This document shows positions 474 through 64,000 of a stretch of DNA of 64,000 bases, one piece after another (positions within the stretch are counted from its first letter, which is position 1; each line of letters begins with the position of its first letter). The DNA is from Lagopus muta. Its lineage: Eukaryota. The translations under genes and the position numbers were made by a program. The DNA is taken from the NCBI RefSeq assembly GCF_023343835.1, contig NC_064458.1:4665829-4729828 (forward strand), given 5' to 3'. The notes under the pieces are model-generated. The model was given only the letters and a program-made list of their open reading frames with translations, was not told the origin of the DNA and ran no database searches.

Positions 474-646
474 ATGGCACACTCTCTGAATGAATGGCTA
501 TGGCAGCACGAGTTCTGGCTCCCCCCAGGAATTACATGGGAGGACATGAAGGAGTCTGAAGACATCCACTACCCTAAGCCTCGTGATCTCCTGCTCAGCA
601 TCCCTTTTGCCTTAATCCTGGTTGTCATTCGATGTGTCTTTGAAAG
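474..646 (+). CDS. CERS4: CERS4-like coding exon 1 (ATG at 474; donor gtaagt at 647)
   Basis: [18 protein letters not shown]... is the CerS N-terminus. It follows the acceptor ttttccttccag at 472. Confidence 0.85.
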
Positions 647-39004: not shown

Positions 39005-39960
39005 ATTACAGAATCACAGAATCACAGAATGGCCAGGGTTAGAAGGGACCTCAAGGATCATGAAGCTCCAACCCTCCTGCCACATGCAGGGCCACCAAAC
39101 TCCCCATTTAATACTAGACCAGATTGACCAGGGCCCCATCCAGCCTGGCCTTGAACACCTCCAGGGATGGACGGGGCATCCACAGCCTCTCTGGGCAGCT
39201 GTTCCACCACCTCACCACTCTCTCTGTAAAGAATTTCCCCCTAACGTCCTACCTCAATTTTCCCTCCCTCAACATCAAATCATTTCCCCTTGTCCTGCAG
39301 TTATCTATCGTTTCAGAGTTGATTCCCCTCCTGTTTGTAGGCTCCCTTTAGGCGCTGAAAGGCTGCAATGAGGTCACCCCACAGCCTTCTTTTCTGAAGG
39401 CTGAACAAACCCAGCTCTCTCAGTCTGTCTTTGTAGGGGAGCTGTTCCAGCCCCTGATCATCTTCATGGCTCTCCCCTGGACCCTCTCCAACAGCTCCCT
39501 GTCTTTTTTGTACTGGGGGTTCCAGACCTGGACACAGTGCTGCAGATAGGGCCTCACAAGAGCAGAGTAGAGGGGGACAATCACCTCCCTGTCCCTGCTG
39601 GCCAGCCTTCTTCTGATGGAGCACAGGATACCATTTGCATTCCAAGCCACAAGAGCACACTGCTGGCTCATGTTTTGTTTTTCATCTATCAAGACTCCCA
39701 GGTCCCTCTCTCTCAAGGTCTCAGGTCCCCTGCTCTCAAGGAGCTCCTTCCAGTCTGTAAGGATGCCTGGGATTCCTCCAGCCCAATGCCAAACTCTGCA
39801 TTTTGCTGTGTTGAACCTCATCAGGTTCACCCAGGCCCACCTTTCCAGCCTGTCACTCCATCACCAAAGGCCTCCAGCTGGCCCTGCGCCAGCACCCGAC
39901 TTCGTGACAGCCCACGTGGTTCAACCAGAGAACCCAACTGTGCCAGTATCCATAGCCCTT
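39005..39960 (-). mobile_element. CR1 LINE fragment (3' tail plus ORF2 RT C-terminal half); it forms the left boundary of tandem-array copy 1
   Basis: The plus strand reads cagaatcacagaatcacagaatggccagggttagaagggacctcaaggatcatgaagctccaaccc…cagcctctctgggcagctgttccaccacctcaccactctctctgtaaagaatttcccc. Minus-strand ORFs are …[86 protein letters not shown]… and …[33 protein letters not shown]. Confidence 0.85.
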
Positions 39961-40719
39961 ATTAAAAAGAGCAAAATGAGGCCGTGAAAATCAGCTCCTT
40001 TAATAAGAAAGGAAATACGTTCTAAGAGGGGGGTAGAAGAAGAGGATGAGAATGAAGCCAGGCCATGACAAGAACGGCAGGAGGAAGAGGCCGAACTCAT
40101 AAAGGAGACGAGAACCATTTGACTCCTGAGCACGAGTGAGCTGACAGATATGTGAAAAGACTTCAGCTGTCATGCAGGGGAGCACTCTGACACTGGGAGA
40201 ACGGGGCCGCAAGCCTGGACTAGGCGGGCAGCAAAGGCAGGCATCTGGGATCTCTTTCACGGGCAGGGTGCATTGGCAAAGCCCTTGGAAATGAGGCACG
40301 AGCCTTCCCCTCGTGGAGGTGACTCTCCGTAAGGGCCGAGAGGGAAAGGAGTCCCTTCAAAGAAGATCTGGTATGTTACCCAGGCAAGCGGTGCACCGTG
40401 GGGAAAGGTGTGCCTGAGGGCACCAGCTCTTCTGGAGGTGATGCGTAATGCTGAAAAAAGAGGGGAGATACAGACTGGCTGTTGGCCGGCAATTGCTGAT
40501 TCTGAGGGCCCAGGGCTGCCGCCATCTTGCTTGGGAGCCTGGGACGCATTCCGCCCCGAGGGGGTAACCGTGATGTCACAGTGGTGGCAGGGAGCGGCCA
40601 TTGTGACCCGCGGGGCTGGGAGCAGAGCAAAGGCTGCCGGGCTCAGAGCGTGGTCAGTGCGGCCTGGTGAGGTGCAGAGAGAGCAGGGACTCTTCAAGTG
40701 CTCACCGTTGACGCGCAAC

Positions 40720-43510
40720 ATGTCCAGTAGGAAGCGGAAGGCCCCCGACTCCGGGGAGCAAGGTGAGAGCAAAGCATCCCTGCGTGCAGCTCCCCGCCGC
40801 CGGGCAGAGGGGTGCTGGGGGTCTGCCAGCGGCAGAGAGGGAAGGGAGGGGCAGGAGCAAGGAGCACGGCCCTGGGGACCGCCCTCAGGGACAACTGGCC
40901 CCGCAAGGTGCTCACTGCTGCCCGCCTTTGCTCTCTCCTCTCCAGTGTGCATGCTGTGTCGCCGGGCGGATGTCGACCCGAACATCTGCGGGCGCACCTT
41001 TGCCGAGAGCGACCTTTGCGTGCATGAGTTCTGCTTGGTGAGTTCCAACCCTCAAGGGCTCCTGCCAGCTTCCTGCCAGGGATGCTCCCTTCCTGTCTGT
41101 CCTAATGAGATCCTGCTCTGCTCTTTCCCACAGCTTTTTTCTTTGAAGAAAAACACATTCTTTGAAGAAAGCGACCCCTGGGAGGAAACGCTGCGCCTCC
41201 CCGTTGGGACCATCAGATGCAGAATCAAGCAGGCGGACCAGAAGGTGAGCTTTGTGCCAGGAGAGGCTCACGCCAGCTTAGTCTGCACCCAGAGAAAGCA
41301 ATGGCAGCCCTTCCAGCGGGCTCCAGGGCAAAGTCCTGCCATAGCAGACGAGCCTTCTCCGCCAGGCGGCTCTGCAGAGTGGAGCCCAGCAGCTTCCGCA
41401 GCCTGTGCCCTGCCCAGAGGTGTGGGGCCGGCCGTGGAGGCCCTGAGCCTGCTGCTGATCGGGGCTGCCTTGTTCCTTTCAGCAATGCTTTGTTTGTGGC
41501 GAGAGAGGAGCCGCCATCAGCTGCGCAGAGAGAGGCTGTGCACGCAGCTTCCACCTGCCCTGCGCCGCGGACGGTGAATGCGTCACCCAGTTCTTTGGGC
41601 AGCACAGGTAAGGGCTGTCAGCAGCAGCCAAGCCAGGGAGGAACCCACAGCGACAGCTCCCAGCAGCCTGCCAGAGATGGGGCCTGGGGCTCCTGCCTGC
41701 TGCTCTGCCCTCCTGGCAGTGCTTCTCACTGTGCCCATCACTTGCATCGTCCCCCAGGTCCTTCTGCTGCGAGCACCGCCCGCGACAGGCAGCGGAGGCA
41801 GCTCCACCCCAAGGCACTGACTGCGTCATCTGCCTGGAGCCCCTGGAGGACAGCACGTCCTACCAGACCCTGTGGTGCCCAGCGTGCAAGCACACCTGGT
41901 TCCACCGCCGCTGCGTCCAGGTAGAAGCCCTCCCCTCACCCTGCGGCCACGGCCCGCGCTCAGCAGCACCGAGCCCCGCTCACGCTCACGCTGCTTCTGC
42001 TTCTCCGGCAGGGGCAGGCCACGAACGCCGGCACCATGTGCTTCCAGTGCCCCATTTGTTGAGACACGGAGCAATTCCGGGCAGAAATGTCCACTCTGGG
42101 GATCCAAGTCCCAGTCAGGTTGGTGTCCTTCTCCCCAGCGCTGCAGATGGGAAGGCGCGAGCGCTGGGCCTGCCCAGGGACTGTCCCGGCAGGCCTGGCC
42201 CTTTGCTGTCTCACCAGCACAGGCCTCAGCTTCACGGAGAAGCTGGAAATGGGGTTGCCTTGGATGAACGGGGATACCCCGGATCACACATGGCAGGGAA
42301 CCGGGAACTCATCGCATTCCCTCCCTTCTCTTGTAGGAGACCGTCTTGGTGGGATGACAACACCTACCCATCACTTCTGCGGAGGCACAGGCGCTGCGAT
42401 GTCAGCAAGTGCCTTTACCCAGGAGGCAGGGAGCAGGCAGAGGTGAATGGGTGAGTTACCTCAGCAGCCCTCTGGGCTTCTGCAGGGGATCTCCCCCTCA
42501 ACACCGGATGGGGAACCAGGGCTGAGCACCGCAGATGTGCCGGCCGCTGCCTGGCTTGGCTCACTTTGTCCTCACAGCCACAACCCGTTTGCTTCCCCAG
42601 GCCCTGGCAGCTGCTGCTCTGCAGCTCCTGTGCTGCAGAAGGGACCCACCGACGATGCTCCTACCTGAGCAACAGAGTTGGCAGCTGGGAGTGTGACAGC
42701 TGTGCTGGCATAGGCACCGGTAAGATGCAAACAGCTGTGGCTCCCTAGGCGGGGGCCGGGCAACGCCTGGCAGTGGGTGCTGCTCAGGGCGGCCCTGCCA
42801 GGCTCTCTCTGCCCCAGGAAGGAGGGCAGCCCGTTGCGACTCAAGGCTGCAGCTTCATCCCAATGATCACCTTCCTGCTTTCCTTTACAGCCTCCAGCAG
42901 CAACACGGAGCGCGCCGGACCCAGCACCAACACGGAGCGCGCCGGCCCCAGCACTTCCAGCCAAGGGGCTCCGGAGCCTCCCCGTGGCTCCCAGGGACCG
43001 GAGAACATCAGCTCCGGCTCCAGCAGCCAGGCAGCATCGGGCCCCTCACACCGGTCCCAGCTGCCTGAGAACAGCCGCCTGCCCAGTGAGCCTGGGACAC
43101 GGCAGAGGGCAATCGGCCCACGCCTCCCTGAGGATCAGGAGGCATCTCTGCAGCGCCGAGGACGCCGCGGGAGCGGCCGTGCAACAGCCCCGCGCACCAG
43201 CAGCAGCTCCCGCAGGTCCACCCCACGGAGGGCACCGCGGCCCTCCAGCGACTCCCCGGTGGCTGCACCCAGAAGGAGCCCCAGGCAGCAGGGGACGGGC
43301 CGGGCACGAAGCCGCTCCCCGCTTCAAGATCGGGCCTCACGTTCCCAGAGCCGGCCCAGAAGAAGCCGTGGCAGCAGACAAACACCACGCCGAGCTGCAC
43401 AGAGCAGCACCCTCTGCTCAGCCGCCCCAGTGACATCGAGGCCCTCGAGGGGTTCCCCGCTGCCTGGACACAGAAGACCCTCCAGGCAGCAAGGGAGGGC
43501 CCACACATGA
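40720..43510 (+). pseudogene. PHF7-like (PHD/ePHD zinc-finger, RING-like) gene with an SR/basic C-terminal tail, copy 1; premature TGA in exon 6. Exons: 40720-40762, 40946-41037, 41134-41244, 41483-41607, 41758-41920, 42012-42118, 42337-42450, 42601-42719, 42891-43510.
   Basis: Spliced product: MSSRKRKAPDSGEQ|VCMLCRRADVDPNICGRTFAESDLCVHEFCL|LFSLKKNTFFEESDPWEE..IRCRIKQADQK|QCFVCGERGAAISCAERGCARSFHLPCAADGECVTQFFGQHR|SFCCEHRPRQAAEAAPPQGTDCVICLEPLEDSTSYQTLWCPACKHTWFHRRCVQ|GQATNAGTMCFQCPIC*DTEQFRAEMSTLGIQVPVR|RPSWWDDNTYPSLLRRHRRCDVSKCLYPGGREQAEVNG|PWQLLLCSSCAAEGTHRRCSYLSNRVGSWECDSCAGIGT|ASSSNTERAGPS...RS-rich 206 aa...GRAHT*. Block-for-block it matches mammalian PHF7, recalled from memory ([118 protein letters not shown]). 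All introns are GT-AG. Codon 42060-42062 is TGA here but CGA in copies 2 and 3. Confidence 0.7.
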
Positions 43511-43692
43511 AGCCCTTCCGCAGCGGGATGTCAGGCTGCGACTTCCCACACAGACCCCAGCACGCCGCAGCAGCCAAACCCAACAGCAGCGGCCAGCCTG
43601 GGCACAAAGCTGCTCCCAGGTCCATCTGCAGAACCACATCCCCACAGCCAGACCTCAGTCTGCACAGGAGCAGCCGGGTGCCAATGACACCT

Positions 43693-43850
43693 GCTCAACT
43701 TGGTCAACATCAGCCAAGACGACAAATCCCACGCTCATTTACATCAGCTTGCTCAACTTGGTCAACATCAGCCAAGACGACAAATCCACGCTCATTTACA
43801 TCAGCTTGCTCAACTTGGTCAACATCAGCCAAGACAATAAATCCCACCCC
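43693..43850 (+). repeat. 58-bp minisatellite ×~3 (gctcaacttggtcaacatcagccaagacgacaaatcccacgctcatttacatcagctt), ~180 bp downstream of the PHF7-like stop. Copies also at 53802-53959 and 63911-64000 (partial).
   Basis: Direct repeats start at 43693, 43751 and 43808; the second lacks one C and the third diverges at its 3' end. Confidence 0.8.
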
Positions 43851-43929
43851 CACCCCCATCAGCTTCATTCTTCTCGTCTTTTCCTGGGGTGGGCAGAGTT
43901 CAGACCTCGACCACAGGGTTGCCTTCTCC

Positions 43930-45085
43930 CCAGCAGAATGGCTCAGGTTGGAGGGGCCCTTAAATATCATCCGGCTCTAACCCCCTTGCCGTGAGCAGGT
44001 TCATGCACCACCAGATCAGGATGCCCAGGATCCCATCCACCCTGGCCTCAAAGGACTCCAGCAACGGGGTGTCCTGAACCCCTCAGGGAGGAACCTCGCT
44101 GTTCCAGTGCCTCGCCACTCCCTGAGGAAACAGTTTCTTTCTAACACCTCATCTCTCTCTATCCTCTTTTAGTTTCATGCCATTCCCCCTTGTCCTGTCA
44201 CTATCAGAATGCATGAAAAAGTCAGTCCTCCTCCAGCTTGGCAGGACCCTTAAAAGTACGAGAAGGCTGTGGGCACAGAGGTCTCCTCAGAGCCTTCTGT
44301 TCTGAAAGCGAAGTGAACCCCACTCCCTCAACCTGCCTTCTGAGGTGCGGTGCTCCAGGCCTTGTCTTCTCTTTGCGGCCCTCCTCCGGACCCCCCCTCC
44401 CACCGCTCCACACCCCTCCTGTGCTTGGCACCCCAGGCTTGGGCGCAGTACTCCAGATGGATGCCCTCGCAAGGGCACAGCAGAGACGGACAATCACCGC
44501 CCTGCCCTGCTGGACACCTTCCTCAGGCCTTCCGGGCTGCAGGCACGCGCTGCTGGCTCATCTCCGGCTTTTTGGCCATTACGACCCCCAGGTCCTTCTC
44601 CACAGGGCTTCTCTCGCTGTCTTCTCCTCCCAGTCTCCACCCGTATCTGCGACTGCCTCAACCCAATCGCAACACCTTGCACTGGGCCTTGTTAAACCTC
44701 ACGAGATGCTCACGTGCCCTGTATTCCAGCCTGGGTCCAGGTCCCTCTGGATAGCGTCTCTGCCTTCTGCTGTGCCAAGCGCACCATCAGCTCGGTGCCG
44801 TCAGCTGGGGGTGCACTCAATCCCACCGTCTGTGTCCTTGATAAAAATGCTCACGAGCATCAGTCCCCAGACGGACCCCTGGGTGCCCGGCCTCCACCTG
44901 GACACAGAGCCGCTGGCAGCAATCCTCGGGCACAACATCCAAACAACCTGCATCCACCTGTCTGTTCAACACTCAAATGCACATCTCTCCACTTCAGACA
45001 TTAGGAGGTGCTGTGGGACGAAGACATCAGTCGCCCTTCCTTTGTCCATCACAGCCATCACTCCATCACCAAAGGCCTCCAGATG
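43930..45085 (-). mobile_element. CR1 LINE fragment (older, diverged) inside the repeat unit; copy also at 54039-55194
   Basis: …ctcgctgttccagtgcctcgccactccctgaggaaacagtttctttctaacacctcatctctctctatcctcttttagtttcatgccattcccccttgtcctgtcactatc…ggcgcagtactccagatggatgccctcgcaagggcacagcagagacggacaatcaccgccctgccctgctggacacc…catcactccatcaccaaaggcctccag is the reverse complement of the CR1 3' tail and ORF2 3' region. Confidence 0.7.
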
Positions 45086-46799
45086 GCTCAGGCACAGCCG
45101 CCCTTGCTGAAGCCGTGCTGGCTGTCTTAGGTCGCCTCCCCATCTCGCGTGTGCCTTCACATCTCCTCCAGGAGGATCCACCCCGCCATGTTCCCAGGCC
45201 CACAGATGAGGCACAGCGGCCTTCAGGCCCAGCTGGCTTCTGGCCCAGCCCCACTGAGGCACGAGGTCTCAAGTCAGGATGGATCAAGGCTCTGCTGGCA
45301 GGGCAGCCCAATTCTGGGGGTGTTTCATGGCTTGGGGTTGCCACTGTTCTGTATCGTTCATTCATTAGCAGCAAACCATTTCCATTTGTAGTATTTTTTA
45401 AAGCGTTGGGGGGAAAAAAAAGGAGAGAAACAAAGCGTAAAACTGGTGGGATATCTGACTTCTTTTTTCGTGAAGGTAGTGCGTCAATGCCTCGTTTGAT
45501 GTCAATGGTTGCAATTTTTCGTGAGGTCTTAATGCGTTTGTCAGATTTCTGATGAAATTTTACTCTTGCCATGCAATTGTTCACAAGCGTGCTGACTGCC
45601 AAAACGCGATGACGTGAATAAGGCTTGACTGCAAAGCGAGGGATATTTCTGTCTGTTAAAAGAGGTCTGACAGAAGTCCAGTCAGGAGACATGGTTAGAT
45701 TTTGGAGTCGAATATCTGGTTGGAACTCCAGGCATTCCAATTGAAAACTGGCAGGTAATGCATTTGTATCAACTTAAAATGGGGTCACCCACATAAAGGG
45801 ATGATTTTTTGGCAAAATTGAAACCGGTTTCCAAATTCCTTTATCAAAAGAGAAAGCATGGCTGCACATTCTTTGCTGTTCAGAGCACTGCGTGGGGCCG
45901 GGGCTGGGCTGCACTGCTGGCTGTGCGGAGCTGCGCATTGGGTACACCTGCTCTGGGTCCCAGAGAGAGCTCCAACACACAAAGTAAAGCAATACGGTGC
46001 CCAACTCTCTTGCAAAATACTACTTTAGGATTCAGCATTCACCAAGAAAGAGCAAACCTAGCTTTTACAACAGCTCACACAAATTACCCAAAGACACCCT
46101 GTGAGACAGAAAGCATGAAGATTCATGGAGGCAATCAGCTTTTTTTGGGGTGGAGTTTCAAGCACGCAGCCCAGCCTGGAGCACAGCCCCTTTTCCGTTT
46201 GTAATCCTGCAGGAGTAGAGCACCTGCTGGGGCACAGAGCATCATCTGGACAGTTTCCACTGACAGAAGTAGAGCATCATACTGGGGCAGAAAAAGAAAA
46301 AAAAAAGAAAAGAGCATAGCTATATTAAAATACTTTGAACTGAACTTTTCACCCTGCAGGATGAGCTCACTTCAGGGCTCACATCGTGAGAGGTTTGGAA
46401 AAAAATATTCAAACATCCTGATTTGTGTTTCCAGTGCTACGGATTAAAAGCTGCAGAAATGCCTTCTCCTCCACCATCCATCAACTCTGATCCTGGGACA
46501 GAGACCCACAAACTCCTCAGGGTTGGAAGGGTCCTCTGAGGGCCATCCGGACCAACCCCCCTGCAGCGCACAGGGACACCGCAGCTGGGTCAGGTCTCCA
46601 GGGACGGAGCACCCAGCGCACCTCTGTGCGACCTGTGCCAGTGCCTCACCACCTCTCTGCAGAAGATTTCGTCCCTATAGCCAACCTAAACCTCCCCTCT
46701 TGGAGCTTGCAGCCATTTCCCTCTCGGAGCTGGAAACCACACTGACACTTTGGTCAGTTTTGGAGCAGAAAATGAGATGAGATGTAGATAGACAGATAA

Positions 46800-47420
46800 C
46801 TCGATGTTTTTCTTCCTTGATTTACTATTTATTATGACCTCGCTGACCGACTGCACGCCGCACGCCCAGCACCGCCGCCAGCTCCAAGCACCACCAGCCC
46901 GCCGCGCCGCCAGCGCAGCGCCCTTACACCAACGAGCCGCCGCTTCCGCTCTTCTCGGCACATGCGCAGCACCAGCAGGAGGACCCGCTACCATCGAGTT
47001 GGAGGGCTGGAGGCACAGAGCAGTCAGAGCAAAGAGGCACCACTTCCGGGTTTCCGGAGGCGTCAGTGTCTGGAGGATCGCTTCGTATTACCGCAGGGAC
47101 GGGCGGTACGGAGCGGAGAGAGCAGAGCGACGCGTCGTGCCGCTCCGGGACGGCTCTGTGGTGCTCTGCGGGACCGTGCGGGCCCCGGGGGGCCCAGAGC
47201 GCCCAGAGCTCGTCTGACCCCCCGCTGCCCCTAAAACCGCCGCCGCGGCGGTCCCGACTGCAATTCTGCGCTCCGGTCAAGCGGTGGCAGCAGAGACCGA
47301 GAAAAGAGCGGCGTGGGGCGTGGGTACCGGCGATGGGAGCGGAGCGAGCCTGGGGCTTGGCTCTGCTCGGGTAAATGCGTCCATTCCAACTGCATTCAGG
47401 CTCGGCTAGCTCTGAGCTCT
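46800..47420. promoter_or_regulatory. CpG island (very CG-dense; cgccgc/gcgcgc runs) inside the repeat unit; copy also at 56909-57529
   Basis: Dense CpG content, e.g. gaccgactgcacgccgcacgcccagcaccgccgccagctccaagcaccaccagcccgccgcgccgccagcgcagcgccc… and ccgccgccgcggcggtcccgactgcaattctgcgctccggtcaagcgg. It ends at a possible ATG-plus-donor (47333-47370). Confidence 0.6.
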
Positions 47421-49990: not shown

Positions 49991-50828
49991 CCCTGCGCCA
50001 GCACCCGACTTCGTGACAGCCCACGTGGTTCAACCAGAGAACCCAACTGTGCCAGTATCCATAGCCCTTATTAAAAAGAGCAAAATGAGGCCGTGAAAAT
50101 CAGCTCCTTTAATAAGAAAGGAAATACGTTCTAAGAGGGGGGTAGAAGAAGAGGATGAGAATGAAGCCAGGCCATGACAAGAACGGCAGGAGGAAGAGGC
50201 CGAACTCATAAAGGAGACGAGAACCATTTGACTCCTGAGCACGAGTGAGCTGACAGATATGTGAAAAGACTTCAGCTGTCATGCAGGGGAGCACTCTGAC
50301 ACTGGGAGAACGGGGCCGCAAGCCTGGACTAGGCGGGCAGCAAAGGCAGGCATCTGGGATCTCTTTCACGGGCAGGGTGCATTGGCAAAGCCCTTGGAAA
50401 TGAGGCACGAGCCTTCCCCTCGTGGAGGTGACTCTCCGTAAGGGCCGAGAGGGAAAGGAGTCCCTTCAAAGAAGATCTGGTATGTTACCCAGGCAAGCGG
50501 TGCACCGTGGGGAAAGGTGTGCCTGAGGGCACCAGCTCTTCTGGAGGTGATGCGTAATGCTGAAAAAAGAGGGGAGATACAGACTGGCTGTTGGCCGGCA
50601 ATTGCTGATTCTGAGGGCCCAGGGCTGCCGCCATCTTGCTTGGGAGCCTGGGACGCATTCCGCCCCGAGGGGGTAACCGTGATGTCACAGTGGTGGCAGG
50701 GAGCGGCCATTGTGACCCGCGGGGCTGGGAGCAGAGCAAAGGCTGCCGGGCTCAGAGCGTGGTCAGTGCGGCCTGGTGAGGTGCAGAGAGAGCAGGGACT
50801 CTTCAAGTGCTCACCGTTGACGCGCAAC

Positions 50829-53619: not shown

Positions 53620-56600
53620 AGCCCTTCCGCAGCGGGATGTCAGGCTGCGACTTCCCACACAGACCCCAGCACGCCGCAGCAGCCAAACCCAACAGCAGCG
53701 GCCAGCCTGGGCACAAAGCTGCTCCCAGGTCCATCTGCAGAACCACATCCCCACAGCCAGACCTCAGTCTGCACAGGAGCAGCCGGGTGCCAATGACACC
53801 TGCTCAACTTGGTCAACATCAGCCAAGACGACAAATCCCACGCTCATTTACATCAGCTTGCTCAACTTGGTCAACATCAGCCAAGACGACAAATCCACGC
53901 TCATTTACATCAGCTTGCTCAACTTGGTCAACATCAGCCAAGACAATAAATCCCACCCCCACCCCCATCAGCTTCATTCTTCTCGTCTTTTCCTGGGGTG
54001 GGCAGAGTTCAGACCTCGACCACAGGGTTGCCTTCTCCCCAGCAGAATGGCTCAGGTTGGAGGGGCCCTTAAATATCATCCGGCTCTAACCCCCTTGCCG
54101 TGAGCAGGTTCATGCACCACCAGATCAGGATGCCCAGGATCCCATCCACCCTGGCCTCAAAGGACTCCAGCAACGGGGTGTCCTGAACCCCTCAGGGAGG
54201 AACCTCGCTGTTCCAGTGCCTCGCCACTCCCTGAGGAAACAGTTTCTTTCTAACACCTCATCTCTCTCTATCCTCTTTTAGTTTCATGCCATTCCCCCTT
54301 GTCCTGTCACTATCAGAATGCATGAAAAAGTCAGTCCTCCTCCAGCTTGGCAGGACCCTTAAAAGTACGAGAAGGCTGTGGGCACAGAGGTCTCCTCAGA
54401 GCCTTCTGTTCTGAAAGCGAAGTGAACCCCACTCCCTCAACCTGCCTTCTGAGGTGCGGTGCTCCAGGCCTTGTCTTCTCTTTGCGGCCCTCCTCCGGAC
54501 CCCCCCTCCCACCGCTCCACACCCCTCCTGTGCTTGGCACCCCAGGCTTGGGCGCAGTACTCCAGATGGATGCCCTCGCAAGGGCACAGCAGAGACGGAC
54601 AATCACCGCCCTGCCCTGCTGGACACCTTCCTCAGGCCTTCCGGGCTGCAGGCACGCGCTGCTGGCTCATCTCCGGCTTTTTGGCCATTACGACCCCCAG
54701 GTCCTTCTCCACAGGGCTTCTCTCACTGTCTTCTCCTCCCAGTCTCCACCCGTATCTGCGACTGCCTCAACCCAATCGCAACACCTTGCACTGGGCCTTG
54801 TTAAACCTCACGAGATGCTCACGTGCCCTGTATTCCAGCCTGGGTCCAGGTCCCTCTGGATAGCGTCTCTGCCTTCTGCTGTGCCAAGCGCACCATCAGC
54901 TCGGTGCCGTCAGCTGGGGGTGCACTCAATCCCACCGTCTGTGTCCTTGATAAAAATGCTCACGAGCATCAGTCCCCAGACGGACCCCTGGGTGCCCGGC
55001 CTCCACCTGGACACAGAGCCGCTGGCAGCAATCCTCGGGCACAACATCCAAACAACCTGCATCCACCTGTCTGTTCAACACTCAAATGCACATCTCTCCA
55101 CTTCAGACATTAGGAGGTGCTGTGGGACGAAGACATCAGTCGCCCTTCCTTTGTCCATCACAGCCATCACTCCATCACCAAAGGCCTCCAGATGGCTCAG
55201 GCACAGCCGCCCTTGCTGAAGCCGTGCTGGCTGTCTTAGGTCGCCTCCCCATCTCGCGTGTGCCTTCACATCTCCTCCAGGAGGATCCACCCCGCCATGT
55301 TCCCAGGCCCACAGATGAGGCACAGCGGCCTTCAGGCCCAGCTGGCTTCTGGCCCAGCCCCACTGAGGCACGAGGTCTCAAGTCAGGATGGATCAAGGCT
55401 CTGCTGGCAGGGCAGCCCAATTCTGGGGGTGTTTCATGGCTTGGGGTTGCCACTGTTCTGTATCGTTCATTCATTAGCAGCAAACCATTTCCATTTGTAG
55501 TATTTTTTAAAGCGTTGGGGGGAAAAAAAAGGAGAGAAACAAAGCGTAAAACTGGTGGGATATCTGACTTCTTTTTTCGTGAAGGTAGTGCGTCAATGCC
55601 TCGTTTGATGTCAATGGTTGCAATTTTTCGTGAGGTCTTAATGCGTTTGTCAGATTTCTGATGAAATTTTACTCTTGCCATGCAATTGTTCACAAGCGTG
55701 CTGACTGCCAAAACGCGATGACGTGAATAAGGCTTGACTGCAAAGCGAGGGATATTTCTGTCTGTTAAAAGAGGTCTGACAGAAGTCCAGTCAGGAGACA
55801 TGGTTAGATTTTGGAGTCGAATATCTGGTTGGAACTCCAGGCATTCCAATTGAAAACTGGCAGGTAATGCATTTGTATCAACTTAAAATGGGGTCACCCA
55901 CATAAAGGGATGATTTTTTGGCAAAATTGAAACCGGTTTCCAAATTCCTTTATCAAAAGAGAAAGCATGGCTGCACATTCTTTGCTGTTCAGAGCACTGC
56001 GTGGGGCCGGGGCTGGGCTGCACTGCTGGCTGTGCGGAGCTGCGCATTGGGTACACCTGCTCTGGGTCCCAGAGAGAGCTCCAACACACAAAGTAAAGCA
56101 ATACGGTGCCCAACTCTCTTGCAAAATACTACTTTAGGATTCAGCATTCACCAAGAAAGAGCAAACCTAGCTTTTACAACAGCTCACACAAATTACCCAA
56201 AGACACCCTGTGAGACAGAAAGCATGAAGATTCATGGAGGCAATCAGCTTTTTTTGGGGTGGAGTTTCAAGCACGCAGCCCAGCCTGGAGCACAGCCCCT
56301 TTTCCGTTTGTAATCCTGCAGGAGTAGAGCACCTGCTGGGGCACAGAGCATCATCTGGACAGTTTCCACTGACAGAAGTAGAGCATCATACTGGGGCAGA
56401 AAAAGAAAAAAAAAAGAAAAGAGCATAGCTATATTAAAATACTTTGAACTGAACTTTTCACCCTGCAGGATGAGCTCACTTCAGGGCTCACATCGTGAGA
56501 GGTTTGGAAAAAAATATTCAAACATCCTGATTTGTGTTTCCAGTGCTACGGATTAAAAGCTGCAGAAATGCCTTCTCCTCCACCATCCATCAACTCTGAT

Positions 56601-59600
56601 CCTGGGACAGAGACCCACAAACTCCTCAGGGTTGGAAGGGTCCTCTGAGGGCCATCCGGACCAACCCCCCTGCAGCGCACAGGGACACCGCAGCTGGGTC
56701 AGGTCTCCAGGGACGGAGCACCCAGCGCACCTCTGTGCGACCTGTGCCAGTGCCTCACCACCTCTCTGCAGAAGATTTCGTCCCTATAGCCAACCTAAAC
56801 CTCCCCTCTTGGAGCTTGCAGCCATTTCCCTCTCGGAGCTGGAAACCACACTGACACTTTGGTCAGTTTTGGAGCAGAAAATGAGATGAGATGTAGATAG
56901 ACAGATAACTCGATGTTTTTCTTCCTTGATTTACTATTTATTATGACCTCGCTGACCGACTGCACGCCGCACGCCCAGCACCGCCGCCAGCTCCAAGCAC
57001 CACCAGCCCGCCGCGCCGCCAGCGCAGCGCCCTTACACCAACGAGCCGCCGCTTCCGCTCTTCTCGGCACATGCGCAGCACCAGCAGGAGGACCCGCTAC
57101 CATCGAGTTGGAGGGCTGGAGGCACAGAGCAGTCAGAGCAAAGAGGCACCACTTCCGGGTTTCCGGAGGCGTCAGTGTCTGGAGGATCGCTTCGTATTAC
57201 CGCAGGGACGGGCGGTACGGAGCGGAGAGAGCAGAGCGACGCGTCGTGCCGCTCCGGGACGGCTCTGTGGTGCTCTGCGGGACCGTGCGGGCCCCGGGGG
57301 GCCCAGAGCGCCCAGAGCTCGTCTGACCCCCCGCTGCCCCTAAAACCGCCGCCGCGGCGGTCCCGACTGCAATTCTGCGCTCCGGTCAAGCGGTGGCAGC
57401 AGAGACCGAGAAAAGAGCGGCGTGGGGCGTGGGTACCGGCGATGGGAGCGGAGCGAGCCTGGGGCTTGGCTCTGCTCGGGTAAATGCGTCCATTCCAACT
57501 GCATTCAGGCTCGGCTAGCTCTGAGCTCTGCCAAAGTGGTTGGCATTTGTCATTGCTGAGCGCACAAAAGGCTCGACCAAAGGTGACGATGCCCGGAAGG
57601 CAGAAGGATGGAGAAAAGCGTGGCCACATCCCTGGCACGGAGCCGAGCCCGTAGCTGGAGAAGGGGGTTGTTCTGCCGGATGTGGACTGGGAGCGGTTCT
57701 GTGCCACGGCCCGAATCTGCCCTTCTTTGGCTTCGGTCGGGCCAGGAGCTGCTGCGCGGTGCCGCACACCGTGCGTGTGCCGTAACCCCACGCTGCTCCG
57801 TGTGCACGGTGGTTGTGGAGGGCCGTGGTTGTGGGGGGGACCCGAGACCGCCTTCAGCCGGGCGACTGACTCCTGGCTTCTCCGCTGTACTTCGTACAAC
57901 CTGTGTTTGTTGTGCACCTTTCACAAGCGTGTGACAGTACAGTGTTTGCTCTGATGCCTTCACAAGGCTGTCACAGCCGTGTCTCCTGTCTCCGGTTAGC
58001 CTGTCCACGGGTCCACCTGTGAACCAGACAGAAAGAGGGCGAGAATTCACAGTGTTACAGTTCTGTATGGCATTGTCACAGTCTGAGCCACAAAGAAACA
58101 CGTCGCTTCCTTCACACGCCTACAGAGTATTGAGAGTGAGACATAAATATGTGCGTATACATGCATACAGAGCGTCTGATCCTTCACCAATCATAACAGA
58201 ACTTCTTTTCACCAGCTGCGTATTCACATAGGTTTCACCTTTATAAATGTCCACAGTCCATAAATGCCTCATGAAGCTCATGCAGACTGGGACGTGCTTG
58301 ATCGTTTTTCCAAATCATTTCACTGATGGGCTCCGCCACAAGCTCACCTGAAGCGCAACGGTGCCCAAGCCCAGTGAAAAGTGTTGAAAAGCAGCAAGGG
58401 GCTGGAGATGGAGAAGGGTGAAAGAAGAGCTCGGGTGATGTTTGCACAAAGAACAGAACGTGGAGAGGAACAGCATCCCCAGGTCTTCAAATAGACAGAA
58501 GTGTTGAGATTGTTTCACTCCCTTCTTCAAGAGTGGATGTGCAGTGGGGTTCATGCCAGCTGACCAGAAAGACACCAAACCTCTATTCATCAGGGGAAGA
58601 GAAGGGTTAGGATGAGCCTGGAAATTATCAACTACTTGGTGTACCATCCAGTCCCGGGACAATTCTAGAAGCTATCACCCAAAAAGTCTTTCTCAAAAGG
58701 TGAAATTTCCTAATGATTTTTGAAGTAGAAGTCACTCTAAGAGGAAATCAGATACAGTTGCACATACAGCACACAGTCCAAATGCGCAGAAATTTCTGTG
58801 CAAACTGTGCAAAACAAAATGGTAACAAACTCGTGAATGCCTCAGAACAAAAACTGTGCTGCTATGCTCCTGCGAAAGGTGCAGAACAAACATGTTGTGC
58901 GTGAGCACAATGGAGAAGTCCGGAGTTTGTTGTCTTGCTTAAGGCGGTCTCGGTTCGATCCCCAGCCCCCCACACAACCACCACGCAATGGGAGAAGCAT
59001 GACTGGTATGGCATGCACACGGTACATGGCACCAGGCACACTCCACGCCATCTGGAAACTGCTCCTGAGCCAATTGGAAGGGCCCATCCTATGGCATAAA
59101 ATGCATTGCCGACTCCACAGTAGGACCGTCACCCCGGACTTTGGGAGAGCAGGACCTCCTCAGTGGGCCTGCTTGGAGGTATCCCATGGACGGGAGCTTT
59201 GGCAAGTAGGCCCGAGAGAGCTGCTTGACACTTAAACACCGCTTCCTCCAAGCTCAAGATGGATGCATCCCTGAGAGCAAGAAAGCAGGGAAAAGTGGCA
59301 GGAGAACTGCTGGATAAGCAAGGGGCTCATGGATGGACTCAAAGGGAAGAGGAGCGTACACAGCACGTGGAAGAAGGGCATTTCTACTTGGAAAGAATGT
59401 ATGAGCGTTGTCAGGGCCTGCAAGGATGCAATGAGGAAGGCTAAGGCACCCTTGGGATTAAATCCAGCAAAGGCGGTCGAGGAGAACAACAAGGGCTTTT
59501 GTGAGAATGTTGGTAGTAAAACTAAGACTGGAACACATGCGGGTCTGCCACTGAATGCCTTGGTAACAAGGGACAAAGAGAAGGCAGAGGTACTGAATGC

Positions 59601-60937
59601 CTTCTTTGCTTCCATCTTTACTACTAAGATTGCCCCTCCTAAATCCCAGGCCCTGGCGGTAAGAGAGAGAGTCTGGGGAATTAAAGACTTCCTCCTGCTT
59701 GAGGAGGATCTGAACAGGAAGCGTGCAGGCAAAATCAGTGCTCGCAAATTCATGGGCCCTGTGGGGATGCACCCACGTGTGCTGAGAGAGCTGGTGGAGG
59801 TAATTGCTGAACTGCTCTCTATGATCTTGGAGAGGCCTTGGAGAACAGGAGAGCTGCCTGGATGCTGGAGGACAGCCAGCTTCGCACCAGTCATCGCACC
59901 GATGAGTGGGCAGTGAGATGGACTGGGAACTGGCTTGACGACCAAGAGATGATGGAGGGGCCTGGAGCATCTTCCTCACGAGAAAAGGCTGAGAGACCTA
60001 GGACTCTTCAGTCTGGAGAAGAAACGCATGAGCGGGGGATCTCATAACAGTTTGGCCCACTGCGACGGGCCCTGCGTCTGCTCCAAGCCATGAGACAGGC
60101 CCTGCGCCAGCACCCGACTTCGTGACAGCCCACGTGGTTCAACCAGAGAACCCAACTGTGCCAGTATCCATAGCCCTTATTAAAAAGAGCAAAATGAGGC
60201 CGTGAAAATCAGCTCCTTTAATAAGAAAGGAAATACGTTCTAAGAGGGGGGTAGAAGAAGAGGATGAGAATGAAGCCAGGCCATGACAAGAACGGCAGGA
60301 GGAAGAGGCCGAACTCATAAAGGAGACGAGAACCATTTGACTCCTGAGCACGAGTGAGCTGACAGATATGTGAAAAGACTTCAGCTGTCATGCAGGGGAG
60401 CACTCTGACACTGGGAGAACGGGGCCGCAAGCCTGGACTAGGCGGGCAGCAAAGGCAGGCATCTGGGATCCCTTTCACGGGCAGGGTGCATTGGCAAAGC
60501 CCTTGGAAATGAGGCACGAGCCTTCCCCTCGTGGAGGTGACTCTCCGTAAGGGCCGAGAGGGAAAGGAGTCCCTTCAAAGAAGATCTGGTATGTTACCCA
60601 GGCAAGCGGTGCACCGTGGGGAAAGGTGTGCCTGAGGGCACCAGCTCTTCTGGAGGTGATGCGTAATGCTGAAAAAAGAGGGGAGATACAGACTGGCTGT
60701 TGGCCGGCAATTGCTGATTCTGAGGGCCCAGGGCTGCCGCCATCTTGCTTGGGAGCCTGGGACGCATTCCGCCCCGAGGGGGTAACCGTGATGTCACAGT
60801 GGTGGCAGGGAGCGGCCATTGTGACCCGCGGGGCTGGGAGCAGAGCAAAGGCTGCCGGGCTCAGAGCGTGGTCAGTGCGGCCTGGTGAGGTGCAGAGAGA
60901 GCAGGGACTCTTCAAGTGCTCACCATTGACGCGCAAC

Positions 60938-63728
60938 ATGTCCAGTAGGAAGCGGAAGGCCCCCGACTCCGGGGAGCAAGGTGAGAGCAAAGCATCCCTG
61001 CGTGCAGCTCCCCGCCGCCGGGCAGAGGGGTGCTGGGGGTCTGCCAGCGGCAGAGAGGGAAGGAAGGGGCAGGAGCAAGGAGCACGGCCCTGGGGACCGC
61101 CCTCAGGGACAACTGGCCCCGCAAGGTGCTCACTGCTGCCCGCCTTTGCTCTCTCCTCTCCAGTGTGCATGCTGTGTCGCCGGGCGGATGTCGACCCGAA
61201 CATCTGCGGGCGCACCTTTGCCGAGAGCGACCTTTGCGTGCATGAGTTCTGCTTGGTGAGTTCCAACCCTCAAGGGCTCCTGCCAGCTTCCTGCCAGGGA
61301 TGCTCCCTTCCTGTCTGTCCTAACGAGATCCTGCTCTGCTCTTTCCCACAGCTTTTTTCTTTGAAGAAAAACACATTCTTTGAAGAAAGCGACCCCTGGG
61401 AGGAAACGCTGCGCCTCCCCGTTGGGACCATCAGATGCAGAATCAAGCAGGCGGACCAGAAGGTGAGCTTTGTGCCAGGAGAGGCTCACGCCAGCTTAGT
61501 CTGCACCCAGAGAAAGCAATGGCAGCCCTTCCAGCGGGCTCCAGGGCAAAGTCCTGCCATAGCAGACGAGCCTTCTCCGCCAGGCGGCTCTGCAGAGTGG
61601 AGCCCAGCAGCTTCCGCAGCCTGTGCCCTGCCCAGAGGTGTGGGGCCGGCCGTGGAGGCCCTGAGCCTGCTGCTGATCGGGGCTGCCTTGTTCCTTTCAG
61701 CAATGCTTTGTTTGTGGCGAGAGAGGAGCCGCCATCAGCTGCGCAGAGAGAGGCTGTGCACGCAGCTTCCACCTGCCCTGCGCCGCGGACGGTGAATGCG
61801 TCACCCAGTTCTTTGGGCAGCACAGGTAAGGGCTGTCAGCAGCAGCCAAGCCAGGGAGGAACCCACAGCGACAGCTCCCAGCAGCCTGCCAGAGATGGGG
61901 CCTGGGGCTCCTGCCTGCTGCTCTGCCCTCCTGGCAGTGCTTCTCACTGTGCCCATCACTTGCATCGTCCCCCAGGTCCTTCTGCTGCGAGCACCGCCCG
62001 CGACAGGCAGCGGAGGCAGCTCCACCCCAAGGCACTGACTGCGTCATCTGCCTGGAGCCCCTGGAGGACAGCACGTCCTACCAGACCCTGTGGTGCCCAG
62101 CGTGCAAGCACACCTGGTTCCACCGCCGCTGCGTCCAGGTAGAAGCCCTCCCCTCACCCTGCGGCCACGGCCCACGCTCAGCAGCACCGAGCCCCGCTCA
62201 CGCTCACGCTGCTTCTGCTTCTCCGGCAGGGGCAGGCCACGAACGCCGGCACCATGTGCTTCCAGTGCCCCATTTGTCGAGACACGGAGCAATTCCGGGC
62301 AGAAATGTCCACTCTGGGGATCCAAGTCCCAGTCAGGTTGGTGTCCTTCTCCCCAGCGCTGCAGATGGGAAGGCGCGAGCGCTGGGCCTGCCCAGGGACT
62401 GTCCCGGCAGGCCTGGCCCTTTGCTGTCTCACCAGCACAGGCCTCAGCTTCACGGAGAAGCTGGAAATGGGGTTGCCTTGGATGAACGGGGATACCCCGG
62501 ATCACACATGGCAGGGAACCGGGAACTCATCGCATTCCCTCCCTTCTCTTGTAGGAGACCGTCTTGGTGGGATGACAACACCTACCCATCACTTCTGCGG
62601 AGGCACAGGCGCTGCGATGTCAGCAAGTGCCTTTACCCAGGAGGCAGGGAGCAGGCAGAGGTGAATGGGTGAGTTACCTCAGCAGCCCTCTGGGCTTCTG
62701 CAGGGGATCTCCCTCTCAACACCGGATGGGGAACCAGGGCTGAGCACCGCAGATGTGCCGGCCGCTGCCTGGCTTGGCTCACTTTGTCCTCACAGCCACA
62801 ACCCGTTTGCTTCCCCAGGCCCTGGCAGCTGCTGCTCTGCAGCTCCTGTGCTGCAGAAGGGACCCACCGACGATGCTCCTACCTGAGCAACAGAGTTGGC
62901 AGCTGGGAGTGTGACAGCTGTGCTGGCATAGGCACCGGTAAGATGCAAACAGCTGTGGCTCCCTAGGCGGGGGCCGGGCAACGCCTGGCAGTGGGTGCTG
63001 CTCAGGGCGGCCCTGCCAGGCTCTCTCTGCCCCAGGAAGGAGGGCAGCCCGTTGCGACTCAAGGCTGCAGCTTCATCCCAATGATCACCTTCCTGCTTTC
63101 CTTTACAGCCTCCAGCAGCAACACGGAGCGCGCCGGACCCAGCACCAACACGGAGCGCGCCGGCCCCAGCACTTCCAGCCAAGGGGCTCCGGAGCCTCCC
63201 CGTGGCTCCCAGGGACCGGAGAACATCAGCTCCGGCTCCAGCAGCCAGGCAGCATCGGGCCCCTCACACCGGTCCCAGCTGCCTGAGAACAGCCGCCTGC
63301 CCAGTGAGCCTGGGACACGGCAGAGGGCAATCGGCCCACGCCTCCCTGAGGATCAGGAGGCATCTCTGCAGCGCCGAGGACGCCGCGGGAGCGGCCGTGC
63401 AACAGCCCCGCGCACCAGCAGCAGCTCCCGCAGGTCCACCCCACGGAGGGCACCGCGGCCCTCCAGCGACTCCCCGGTGGCTGCACCCAGAAGGAGCCCC
63501 AGGCAGCAGGGGACGGGCCGGGCACGAAGCCGCTCCCCGCTTCAAGATCGGGCCTCACGTTCCCAGAGCCGGCCCAGAAGAAGCCGTGGCAGCAGACAAA
63601 CACCACGCCGAGCTGCACAGAGCAGCACCCTCTGCTCAGCCGCCCCAGTGACATCGAGGCCCTCGAGGGGTTCCCCGCTGCCTGGACACAGAAGACCCTC
63701 CAGGCAGCAAGGGAGGGCCCACACATGA
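60938..63728 (+). CDS. PHF7-like gene with SR/basic tail, copy 3 (apparently intact). Exons: 60938-60980, 61164-61255, 61352-61462, 61701-61825, 61976-62138, 62230-62336, 62555-62668, 62819-62937, 63109-63728.
   Basis: Copy 1 coordinates shifted by +20218. CGA at 62278-62280. The differences from copies 1 and 2 that I located are non-coding (60925 in the 5'UTR at -13, 61064 in intron 1, 62174 in intron 5, 62714 in intron 7). Confidence 0.75.
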
Positions 63729-64000
63729 AGCCCTTCCGCAGCGGGATGTCAGGCTGCGACTTCCCACACAGACCCCAGCACGCCGCAGCAGCCAAACCCA
63801 ACAGCAGCGGCCAGCCTGGGCACAAAGCTGCTCCCAGGTCCATCTGCAGAACCACATCCCCACAGCCAGACCTCAGTCTGCACAGGAGCAGCCGGGTGCC
63901 AATGACACCTGCTCAACTTGGTCAACATCAGCCAAGACGACAAATCCCACGCTCATTTACATCAGCTTGCTCAACTTGGTCAACATCAGCCAAGACGACA

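What the first reader, a model, noticed from the sequence alone, without database searches (positions are those of the whole stretch)
39882..64000. Near-identical 10,109-bp tandem array (at least 2 full copies plus a partial third) of a PHF7-like gene: an ampliconic gene cluster
Three head-to-tail copies differ by only about 0.1–0.2 % with no indels, so the amplification or ongoing gene conversion is very recent. Each unit carries a complete 9-exon gene. Mammalian PHF7 is a testis-restricted gene, and high-identity tandem amplicons of reproduction-related genes are a recurring genome feature. The array probably continues beyond the window, because copy 3 is cut at the window edge. High-identity arrays like this are also prone to assembly collapse, so the true copy number may be larger.
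Basis: seen in the sequence. Interest (0 to 1): 0.8.

Follow-up and report, generated by a model that had tools for sequence, protein, structure and literature searches.

The report
Tandem PHF7-like gene array, rock ptarmigan
The window holds a real head-to-tail array of at least three almost identical 10.1-kb units, each carrying a PHF7-like zinc-finger gene; this kind of amplification is already described in chicken and turkey, so it is a correct but fairly ordinary finding.

Summary
A 10,109-bp unit repeats head to tail from 39880 to the window end: two full copies plus 3,903 bp of a third. There are no indels and only 3 to 7 mismatches between copies.

- **Gene:** each unit carries a 9-coding-exon, 497-aa gene with PHF7 architecture (ePHD, RING, PHD). 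It matches RefSeq 'PHD finger protein 7-like' of Lagopus muta at 100%.
copy 1 has a premature stop (CGA to TGA, R195*), so only copies 2 and 3 are intact.
- **Chicken:** both reference assemblies carry a head-to-tail array of about 9.75-kb units of the closest homologue (85% identity) next to MVP. Avian PHF7 expansion is published.
- **Other grouse:** L. leucura has a 5.6-kb-arm palindrome and T. pallidicinctus a 16.7-kb tandem duplication at the same interval.
- **Concerted evolution:** both junction types in L. muta are present, at the same base, in L. leucura. Yet copies differ by 0.05–0.14% within a species against about 1.2% between species, with 60 species-fixed sites and none pairing orthologously.
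- **Constraint:** dN/dS against chicken is about 0.48.

Verdict: a new member of a known kind, of modest interest. Expression and true copy number could not be tested here.

The parts
39880..49988 (+). Array unit, copy 1 (10,109 bp). It is made of module G 39880-45454, module S 45455-49536 and module T 49537-49988.
   Evidence: Offset-10,109 identity starts at 39880. Module limits come from the breakpoints seen in L. leucura and T. pallidicinctus.
49989..60097 (+). Array unit, copy 2 (10,109 bp).
   Evidence: 3 mismatches and no indel against copy 1.
60098..64000 (+). Array unit, copy 3, cut by the window end after 3,903 bp.
   Evidence: 5 mismatches against copy 2 and 7 against copy 1.
40720..43510 (+). 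PHF7-like gene, copy 1: 9 coding exons, disrupted by a premature stop, so a probable pseudogene. Exons: 40720-40762, 40946-41037, 41134-41244, 41483-41607, 41758-41920, 42012-42118, 42337-42450, 42601-42719, 42891-43510.
   Evidence: Splice model with GT-AG at all eight introns; the translation has * at residue 195.
42060..42062 (+). TGA nonsense codon (R195*) private to copy 1. Copies 2 and 3 have CGA; chicken, L. leucura and T. pallidicinctus have CAA.
   Evidence: It is a C-to-T change at a CpG.
50829..53619 (+). PHF7-like gene, copy 2: intact 497-aa ORF.
   Evidence: The translation is identical to RefSeq XP_048783379/80 (P0126).
60938..63728 (+). PHF7-like gene, copy 3: intact 497-aa ORF, complete within the window.
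   Evidence: The copy-3-specific A at 61064 gives the E-to-K change seen in the intron-1-retaining RefSeq isoform XP_048783378 (P0121).
42894..42954 (+). 27-bp coding tandem repeat (2.3 copies, NTERAGPST) in exon 9. The chicken homologue has one copy.
43692..43847 (+). 57-bp tandem repeat (2.7 copies) just 3' of the stop codon.
46750..47750 (.). CpG-rich island inside module S (CpG observed/expected 0.8-1.1, GC 58-70%). No gene assigned.
   Evidence: About 75% identical to the chicken unit. No Pfam hit on its ORFs and no Rfam hit.
49220..49807 (+). CR1-type retrotransposon ORF fragment at the 3' end of the unit. It runs uninterrupted across the S/T limit at 49536.
   Evidence: ORF text and junction sequence. 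The CR1 assignment is from my own reading of the peptide; Pfam gave no hit.
39008..39830 (-). CR1-type fragment in the left flank, ending 50 bp before the array.
   Evidence: ORF 39420-39830 and similarity to other CR1 copies. Pfam gave no hit; the assignment is from my own reading.
474..33845 (+). Neighbouring ceramide synthase (CERS) gene: start codon at 474, stop at 33843-33845. It is the upstream flank of the array.
   Evidence: Peptide coordinates and TLC domain E=4e-27. The orthologous genes in T. pallidicinctus and L. leucura are annotated with Homeodomain + TRAM_LAG1_CLN8.

Best explanation
The window is from a 4.86-Mb sequence record (presumably a microchromosome) of rock ptarmigan (Lagopus muta). 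Downstream of a ceramide synthase gene lies a genuine head-to-tail array of a 10,109-bp unit, with at least three copies and probably at least four.

**What each unit carries.** Each unit holds one compact gene (2.8 kb from start to stop codon), a bird-specific paralogue of PHF7. PHF7 is a RING E3 ligase and histone-tail reader that in mammals acts in spermatids.

**How the array is maintained (inferred from comparison).** The array belongs to an old, structurally unstable amplicon in the CERS-MVP interval of galliform birds. Unequal crossing-over and gene conversion between copies keep them nearly identical within a species while the species diverge. That is concerted evolution. The same exchanges change copy number and can flip the region between tandem and palindromic layouts.

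**State of the copies.** Interior copies are intact and under moderate purifying selection. The edge copy (copy 1) has picked up a CpG nonsense mutation.

**What is shown and what is inferred.**
- Shown: the array, the gene model, the family assignment, the counterpart structures in other birds, the shared junctions and the species-wise clustering of copies.
- Inferred, not shown: that the copies act as dosage-amplified testis genes, as reported for chicken.
For: **Array.** Searches give the period, the boundaries and the 3-7 mismatches.

**Gene.** One search gives 9 exons with GT-AG at all eight introns and a 497-aa product.

**Species and annotation.**
- One search finds a 100% match to L. 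muta 'PHD finger protein 7-like' on a 4,861,958-bp record.
- Searches show P0126 equals copies 2 and 3.
- One search shows a copy-3 private variant reproduced in XP_048783378.

**Family.**
- One search finds Pfam zf-HC5HC2H and zf-RING_2.
- Searches match PDB PHF7 8jwj at E=3e-58.
- One search shows all zinc-ligand columns invariant against mouse PHF7.

**Copies are real.**
- The three copies are all distinct.
- All 8 variant sites are transitions, 5 of them at CpG.
- There are no N.
- The assembly is HiFi at 57x (PMC10320755).

**Chicken counterpart.**
- GRCg7b has at least 7 and GRCg7w at least 4 head-to-tail genes downstream of MVP.
- Interior units are 9,742-9,771 bp and 99.9% identical; edge units are 96.7-98.2%.

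**Other grouse.**
- L. leucura has a palindrome with 5.64-kb arms at 99.8% identity.
- T. pallidicinctus has a 16,677-bp direct duplication at 99.77%.

**Concerted evolution.**
- The flank|G and T|G junctions fall at the same base in L. muta and L. leucura (40/40 and 38/40 flanking bases identical).
- Over 5.57 kb there are 60 species-fixed differences and 0 sites pairing copies orthologously.
- Copies differ by 0.05-0.14% within a species and 1.13-1.22% between.

**Constraint.** dN/dS is 0.48 against chicken and 0.24-0.36 against other grouse.

**Expression in chicken.** The 63 chicken PHF7 co-orthologues are testis-enriched (PMC6609395). Expansion is reported in chicken and turkey (PMC11835228, PMC10360393).
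Against: - No reads or expression data were available, so true copy number and transcription of these copies are untested.
- The XP_ proteins are models derived from the same assembly, so they are not independent evidence.
- The L. muta chromosome beyond the window could not be fetched, so the far end of the array is unseen.
- The sequencing technology of the L. leucura assembly was not checked. Its layout could be affected by repeat collapse.
- Chicken and ptarmigan units do not share demonstrable unit junctions. The chicken array is MVP-proximal and MVP-oriented, whereas this one is CERS-proximal and CERS-oriented. Independent amplification in the two lineages is therefore not excluded.
- Several residues shown to matter for E2 or H3 binding in mouse PHF7 are substituted: E232W, K192G, Y193Q, Y242L, Y245H, F262A and E299S. 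The biochemical activity may differ from PHF7.
Confidence: 0.85

Rival explanations
1. Assembly artefact. A single-copy or two-copy locus was falsely expanded, for example by retained haplotigs or a mis-resolved repeat graph, so the array in the window overstates the real structure.
For: High-identity 10-kb repeats are close to HiFi read length. L. leucura shows only one direct copy at this position.
Against: - Three mutually distinct copies cannot come from two haplotypes.
- The variants have a biological signature: all are transitions and 5 of 8 are at CpG. They do not look like HiFi errors.
- There are no gaps.
- purge_dups was applied (PMC10320755).
- Independent assemblies of chicken (two) and T. 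pallidicinctus (HiFi, PMC10118296) show tandem copies in the same interval.
Confidence: 0.05
2. Purely recent duplication without gene conversion. The 10.1-kb unit duplicated for the first time in the L. muta lineage within the last few percent of the time since it split from L. leucura. Near-identity then simply reflects youth.
For: - Copies differ by only 0.03-0.18%.
- All three carry the L. muta-specific codon-195 change from CAA to CGA or TGA.
- L. leucura shows no direct tandem copies.
- The rise in copy number itself may well be recent.
Against: - The T|G junction that defines the tandem unit, and the G module boundary at 39880, are both present at the same base in L. leucura.
- The S|spacer|inverted-G junction is shared by L. 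leucura and T. pallidicinctus. Duplicated G modules are therefore older than these splits.
- Paralogues nevertheless cluster strictly by species: 60 fixed sites against 0.
Confidence: 0.1
3. Neutral or decaying amplicon. The copies are by-products of an unstable region and are not functionally maintained, so they are on the way to becoming pseudogenes.
For: - Copy 1 has a nonsense codon.
- dN/dS of 0.48 is relaxed.
- Key mouse E2-contact residues are replaced.
- The C-terminal tail is low-complexity with dN/dS 0.58-0.93.
Against: - Two of three copies keep a 497-aa ORF with all splice sites.
- All zinc ligands are invariant across birds and mouse.
- dN/dS is below 1 in every comparison. It is 0.16-0.41 in the zinc-finger part.
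- Chicken co-orthologues are transcribed with testis bias (PMC6609395).
Confidence: 0.1

Closest known systems
Chicken PHF7 tandem array downstream of MVP (record CM028509.1 in GRCg7b, 5.44 Mb; Fouchecourt et al. 2022, Genomics 114:110411, cited in PMC11835228 and PMC10360393)
   Same: - Same gene lineage: 85% protein and about 87.5% nucleotide identity over the gene.
- The chicken coding-exon map has the same number of exons, and exons 2 and 4-8 have the same lengths.
- Head-to-tail units of about 9.75 kb against 10.1 kb, collinear over the gene, its 3' region and part of module S.
- Interior copies 99.9% identical and edge copies more diverged.
- Same genomic neighbourhood, since MVP is also the far neighbour in L. 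leucura.
   Different: - The chicken array is MVP-proximal and oriented like MVP. The ptarmigan array is CERS-proximal and oriented like CERS.
- Unit junctions are not alignable.
- Chicken units vary in length through indels (9,742-12,550 bp), whereas the ptarmigan units are all exactly 10,109 bp.
- The original paper could not be read here.
Mammalian PHF7 (RING E3 ligase for histone H3K14 / H2A in spermatids; PDB 8jwj, 8jwu; PMC10760634)
   Same: The ePHD-RING-linker-PHD architecture is the same. All zinc-coordinating Cys/His are conserved, as are RING P205, linker W231, and PHD L270 and L272.
   Different: - Only 37% identity.
- It is not the closest avian relative of mammalian PHF7. Another chicken PHF7 protein (P0069) shares just 46% identity with it.
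- Mouse E232, where E232R abolishes UBE2D2 binding, is W here. K192, Y193, Y242, Y245, F262 and E299 are also replaced.
- It carries a 206-residue Ser/Arg-rich tail (residues 292-497) that has no counterpart in the mouse PHF7 chain aligned here.
Ampliconic testis-gene arrays and palindromes of sex chromosomes (e.g. the chicken Z amplicon, human Y palindromes); comparison from my own knowledge
   Same: Near-identical multi-kb copies homogenised by gene conversion. Tandem and palindromic layouts interconvert. The cargo is a gene whose mammalian and chicken relatives are testis-expressed.
   Different: It lies on what is presumably an autosomal microchromosome, not a sex chromosome. Copy number is small in what is visible. 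Expression in this species is unknown.

Membership tests
PHF7 / G2E3-type zinc-finger family | N-terminal extended PHD (zf-HC5HC2H) | tested here: met
   PF13771 E=3.6e-12, residues 41-131, above the gathering score; PF13832 sits just below its cut-off.
PHF7 / G2E3-type zinc-finger family | Central RING finger | tested here: met
   PF13639 gives 28.0 bits against a 27.3 cut-off, residues 145-195. It aligns to the PHF7 RING in 8jwj.
PHF7 / G2E3-type zinc-finger family | C-terminal PHD following a linker | tested here: met
   Residues 222-287 match the PHF7 PHD structure 1weq at E=5.5e-15. PF26054 PHD_G2E3 is precomputed for the identical RefSeq protein.
PHF7 / G2E3-type zinc-finger family | All zinc-coordinating Cys/His conserved | tested here: met
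   The invariant columns in the alignment of mouse PHF7 with five bird proteins include every Cys/His of the three fingers.
PHF7 as a UBE2D2-dependent H3K14 E3 ligase (mechanism of PMC10760634) | E2-contact residues L162, K192, Y193, P205, W231, E232, F238 and Y242 (mouse numbering) | tested here: not met
   P205 and W231 are kept. L162I and F238Y are conservative. K192G, Y193Q, E232W and Y242L are not conservative. W at the E232 position is found in 29 of 112 avian homologues, all galliform.
Orthologue of mammalian PHF7 | Closest avian relative of mammalian PHF7, in conserved synteny | tested here: inconclusive
   Another chicken protein named PHF7 (P0069, on a 20.1-Mb record) is only 46% identical to this one. 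All bird proteins tested are 37-40% identical to mouse. Neighbours here are CERS and MVP. Synteny with the mammalian locus was not examined.
Ampliconic / concertedly evolving tandem gene array | At least two head-to-tail copies of a multi-kb unit at over 99% identity | tested here: met
   Two full copies plus 0.39 of a third, at 99.82-99.97% identity with no indels.
Ampliconic / concertedly evolving tandem gene array | Paralogues more alike within a species than between, although the duplication predates the species split | tested here: met
   Junctions are shared at the same base with L. leucura. There are 60 species-fixed sites against 0 orthologue-pairing sites, with 0.05-0.14% divergence within and 1.13-1.22% between.
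Ampliconic / concertedly evolving tandem gene array | Copies encode an intact, constrained gene | tested here: met
   Copies 2 and 3 are intact and copy 1 has R195*. dN/dS is 0.24-0.48.
Ampliconic / concertedly evolving tandem gene array | Testis-biased expression of the copies | not testable with these tools
   Only chicken literature is available: the 63 co-orthologues have relative testis expression of at least 50% (PMC6609395).
Chicken PHF7 array next to MVP (record CM028509.1) | Same array by descent (shared unit junction) | tested here: inconclusive
   The units are collinear over 40185-45899 and 46586-47497, but no alignable junction exists and the orientation relative to the neighbours is opposite.

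The most novel reading that the evidence does not exclude
The CERS-MVP interval of grouse and other Galliformes may be an autosomal amplicon that repeatedly switches between palindromic and tandem layouts. L. leucura has a palindrome, T. pallidicinctus a 16.7-kb duplication and L. muta a 10.1-kb array. Gene conversion homogenises the copies.

Its cargo is a galliform-specific PHF7 subfamily whose E2-binding linker has changed (E232W). The amplified protein may therefore have a new partner or activity in spermatid chromatin remodelling. Amplification could be driven by male reproductive competition or genetic conflict, as proposed for sex-chromosome amplicons.
Probability: 0.2. Interest if true: 0.5.

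Novelty: new member of a known kind. Interest (0 to 1): 0.3.

Why it matters
It adds a clean, base-resolved example to the known avian PHF7 expansion. The example is an exact-period array in a HiFi assembly, with comparative evidence from three grouse and chicken. That evidence shows the locus evolving in concert and changing architecture between tandem, palindromic and larger-duplication layouts over short evolutionary time.

In practice it flags a region where copy number is likely polymorphic and easily mis-assembled. It also flags a region where annotation pipelines produce many near-identical 'PHF7-like' models. It does not open a new biological question by itself.

Tried and rejected
- **Fetching more of the L. 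muta chromosome.** I looked up four L. muta proteins (P0001, P0126, P0128, P0121). None is in the position index, so the distal end and copy count stay unseen.
- **Reading the key papers.** Fouchecourt et al. 2022 and the zebra finch genome paper are not held. My recollection that zebra finch PHF7 copies are brain-expressed is therefore not used.
- **Flanking repeats as the cause of the duplication.** I looked for repeats that could have mediated it by homologous recombination.
  - The 60 bases before 39880 and before 49989 share no homology.
  - The nearby CR1 fragments are in opposite orientation.
- **Inverted repeats around module S.** These might have explained its inversion in T. pallidicinctus. 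The self-comparison shows none.
- **A second gene or RNA in the unit.**
  - No Pfam hit on the three largest other ORFs.
  - No Rfam family in the unit above E=0.1.
  - No tRNA.
- **PHF7 remnants upstream of the array.** None were found.


Full report
**1. The observation**

A k-mer self-comparison of the window gives 13,833 shared 20-mers at offset 10,109 and 3,690 at offset 20,218. The next most frequent offset has 62. Base-by-base identity at offset 10,109 starts at 39880 and runs uninterrupted to the window end.

| Copy | Coordinates | Length |
|---|---|---|
| 1 | 39880-49988 | 10,109 bp |
| 2 | 49989-60097 | 10,109 bp |
| 3 | 60098-64000 | 3,903 bp, cut by the window end |

- There are no indels and no N.
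- Copies 1 and 2 differ at 3 sites (41106, 42060, 44616).
- Copies 2 and 3 differ at 5 sites, and copies 1 and 3 at 7.
- The unit is GC-rich (57%) against a 44% GC flank.

A 14-kb self-match at 99.94% cannot be chance.

**2. What each unit carries**

On the + strand each unit has a compact gene of nine coding exons. All eight introns have GT-AG boundaries. The product is 497 aa.

- Pfam finds an extended PHD (PF13771) and a RING (PF13639).
- Residues 11-288 match the PHF7 crystal structure 8jwj at E=3e-58.
- Residues 222-287 match the PHF7 PHD 1weq.
- All zinc ligands are invariant in an alignment with mouse PHF7 and four other bird proteins.

The translation of copies 2 and 3 is 100% identical to RefSeq 'PHD finger protein 7-like' of Lagopus muta (XP_048783379/80), on a 4.86-Mb record. 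A variant private to copy 3 (A at 61064, E to K in retained intron 1) is reproduced in XP_048783378. The window is therefore from the rock ptarmigan reference, a HiFi/hifiasm assembly at 57x (PMC10320755).

It has TGA at 42060-42062 where copies 2 and 3 have CGA, and chicken, L. leucura and T. pallidicinctus have CAA. The Q-to-R change is thus present in all L. muta copies. The edge copy then acquired a CpG nonsense mutation.

RefSeq accession numbers and isoform labels suggest three genes encoding the intact protein, although the gene grouping was not seen directly. Only two intact copies lie in the window. A further, slightly different copy (XP_048783196) also exists. At least one more copy therefore probably lies beyond the window. 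This is an inference.

**3. Are the copies real?**

- The three copies are mutually distinct, which two haplotypes cannot produce.
- All 8 variant sites are transitions and 5 are at CpG. This is a mutational signature, not an error signature.
- Copies 1 and 2 share two derived alleles relative to the outgroups.
- Independent assemblies of other birds show the same kind of structure (section 4).

Read depth could not be checked.

**4. Surroundings and relatives**

*Upstream flank.* A ceramide synthase gene occupies 474-33845 on the + strand. CR1 debris follows it up to 39830.

*Chicken.* Both reference assemblies carry head-to-tail arrays of the closest homologue (85% protein identity) downstream of MVP.
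- GRCg7b has at least 7 genes and GRCg7w at least 4.
- Interior units are 9,742-9,771 bp and 99.9% identical. Edge units are 96.7-98.2%.
- Chicken and ptarmigan units are collinear over the gene, its 3' region and part of the spacer, but have no alignable unit junction.

*Literature.* Published work already reports 63 chicken PHF7 co-orthologues with testis-enriched expression (PMC6609395). It also reports variable annotation of 0-68 copies (PMC11835228) and expansion in turkey (PMC10360393).

*Other grouse.* The unit divides into three modules: G (39880-45454), S (45455-49536) and T (49537-49988).

| Species | Layout of the CERS-MVP interval |
|---|---|
| L. muta (this window) | flank, then G-S-T repeated; far end unseen |
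| L. leucura | CERS flank, G, S, 135-bp spacer, inverted G, inverted T, MVP flank; a palindrome with 5.64-kb arms 99.8% identical |
| T. pallidicinctus (HiFi assembly) | flank, G, spacer, inverted S; the whole 16,677-bp block is then duplicated in tandem at 99.77% |

The spacer is homologous in L. leucura and T. pallidicinctus.

**5. How it most likely works**

The two junction types in L. muta are flank|G and T|G. Both occur in L. leucura at the same base, with 40/40 and 38/40 flanking bases identical. Duplicated G modules and the 'tandem' junction therefore predate the split of the two ptarmigans.

Over the 5.57-kb G module there are 60 sites fixed between species and none that pair copies orthologously. 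Divergence within a species is 0.05-0.14%, against 1.13-1.22% between species. This is the signature of concerted evolution by unequal crossing-over and gene conversion. The same process accounts for four things:
- the exact-length units;
- copy-number change;
- a more diverged or decaying edge copy, as in chicken;
- the interconversion of palindromic and tandem layouts.

The gene is under moderate constraint. dN/dS against chicken is 0.48 overall, 0.41 in the zinc-finger part and 0.58 in the Ser/Arg-rich tail. Against other grouse it is 0.24-0.36.

By homology it should act as a chromatin-directed RING protein in male germ cells. This step is inferred.

A caveat comes from mouse PHF7. Structure-guided mutants in that protein show E232 to be critical for UBE2D2 binding (PMC10760634). 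That residue is W in this lineage, and K192, Y193, Y242, Y245, F262 and E299 are also replaced. W at this position is found in 29 of 112 avian homologues, all galliform. Partner choice or activity may therefore have shifted.

**6. Comparison with what is known, and novelty**

The protein meets the architectural definition of the PHF7/G2E3-type family. It is not demonstrably the orthologue of mammalian PHF7, and it fails conservation of some E2-contact residues.

The array is a counterpart of the published chicken PHF7 arrays, but identity by descent of the arrays is not shown. The gene is already annotated in RefSeq. The L. muta genome paper does not mention it.

I class it as a new member of a known kind. 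The small added value lies in three results: the nonsense mutation in copy 1, the evidence for concerted evolution from shared junctions, and the three different architectures in three grouse.

**7. Verdict**

Interest is about 0.3. Untested: true copy number, the structure distal to the window, expression and biochemical activity.

Noticed in passing
window 42060-42062: Copy 1 carries an in-frame TGA (R195*) where copies 2 and 3 have CGA and three other galliforms have CAA. The edge copy of the array is probably a pseudogene.
   Followed up: yes
window 474-33845 (+): A complete ceramide synthase gene fills the first half of the window. Its first exon begins [11 protein letters not shown], and it has a homeodomain-like exon near 17.9 kb, TLC-domain exons at 28.9-29.9 kb and a stop at 33845. 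It is the conserved upstream neighbour of the array in grouse.
   Followed up: partly
window 46750-47750 (and 56859-57859): There is a CpG island (observed/expected 0.8-1.1) inside the unit, about 3 kb downstream of the PHF7-like gene. It is about 75% conserved with the chicken unit. No protein domain, Rfam family or annotated gene explains it. It could be an unannotated promoter or non-coding transcript that is co-amplified.
   Followed up: partly
L011/L001 (L. leucura JAHKMA010000059.1, 37453-71531): The same interval in white-tailed ptarmigan is assembled as a palindrome. Two 5.64-kb arms are 99.8% identical, each holds a PHF7-like gene, and they are convergent around a 4.2-kb spacer between CERS and MVP. 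I did not check whether tandem copies were collapsed in that assembly.
   Followed up: partly
L002/L010 (T. pallidicinctus JAPCYR010000043.1, 1111552-1151023): Lesser prairie-chicken has a 16,677-bp direct duplication (99.77%). Its breakpoints differ from those in L. muta, and it includes 4.5 kb of what is single-copy flank in L. muta and an inverted module S.
   Followed up: partly
window 42894-42954 and 43692-43847 (repeated in each unit): A 27-bp in-frame repeat adds nine residues (NTERAGPST) relative to chicken. A 57-bp repeat (2.7 copies) lies just after the stop codon and is read as coding in the divergent RefSeq model XP_048783196.
   Followed up: no
protein residue 219 of the 497-aa product (window 42349-42351 in copy 1): The residue equivalent to mouse PHF7 E232, where E232R abolishes UBE2D2 binding, is Trp in this protein. 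It is also Trp in 29 of 112 avian homologues, all from Galliformes. Most other birds keep Glu.
   Followed up: partly
window 39000-39049: A weak, sub-threshold Rfam match to mir-3524 (30.9 bits against a gathering score of 99) appears on both strands. It lies at the edge of the scanned stretch, just upstream of the flank CR1 fragment, and is probably repeat-derived noise.
   Followed up: no
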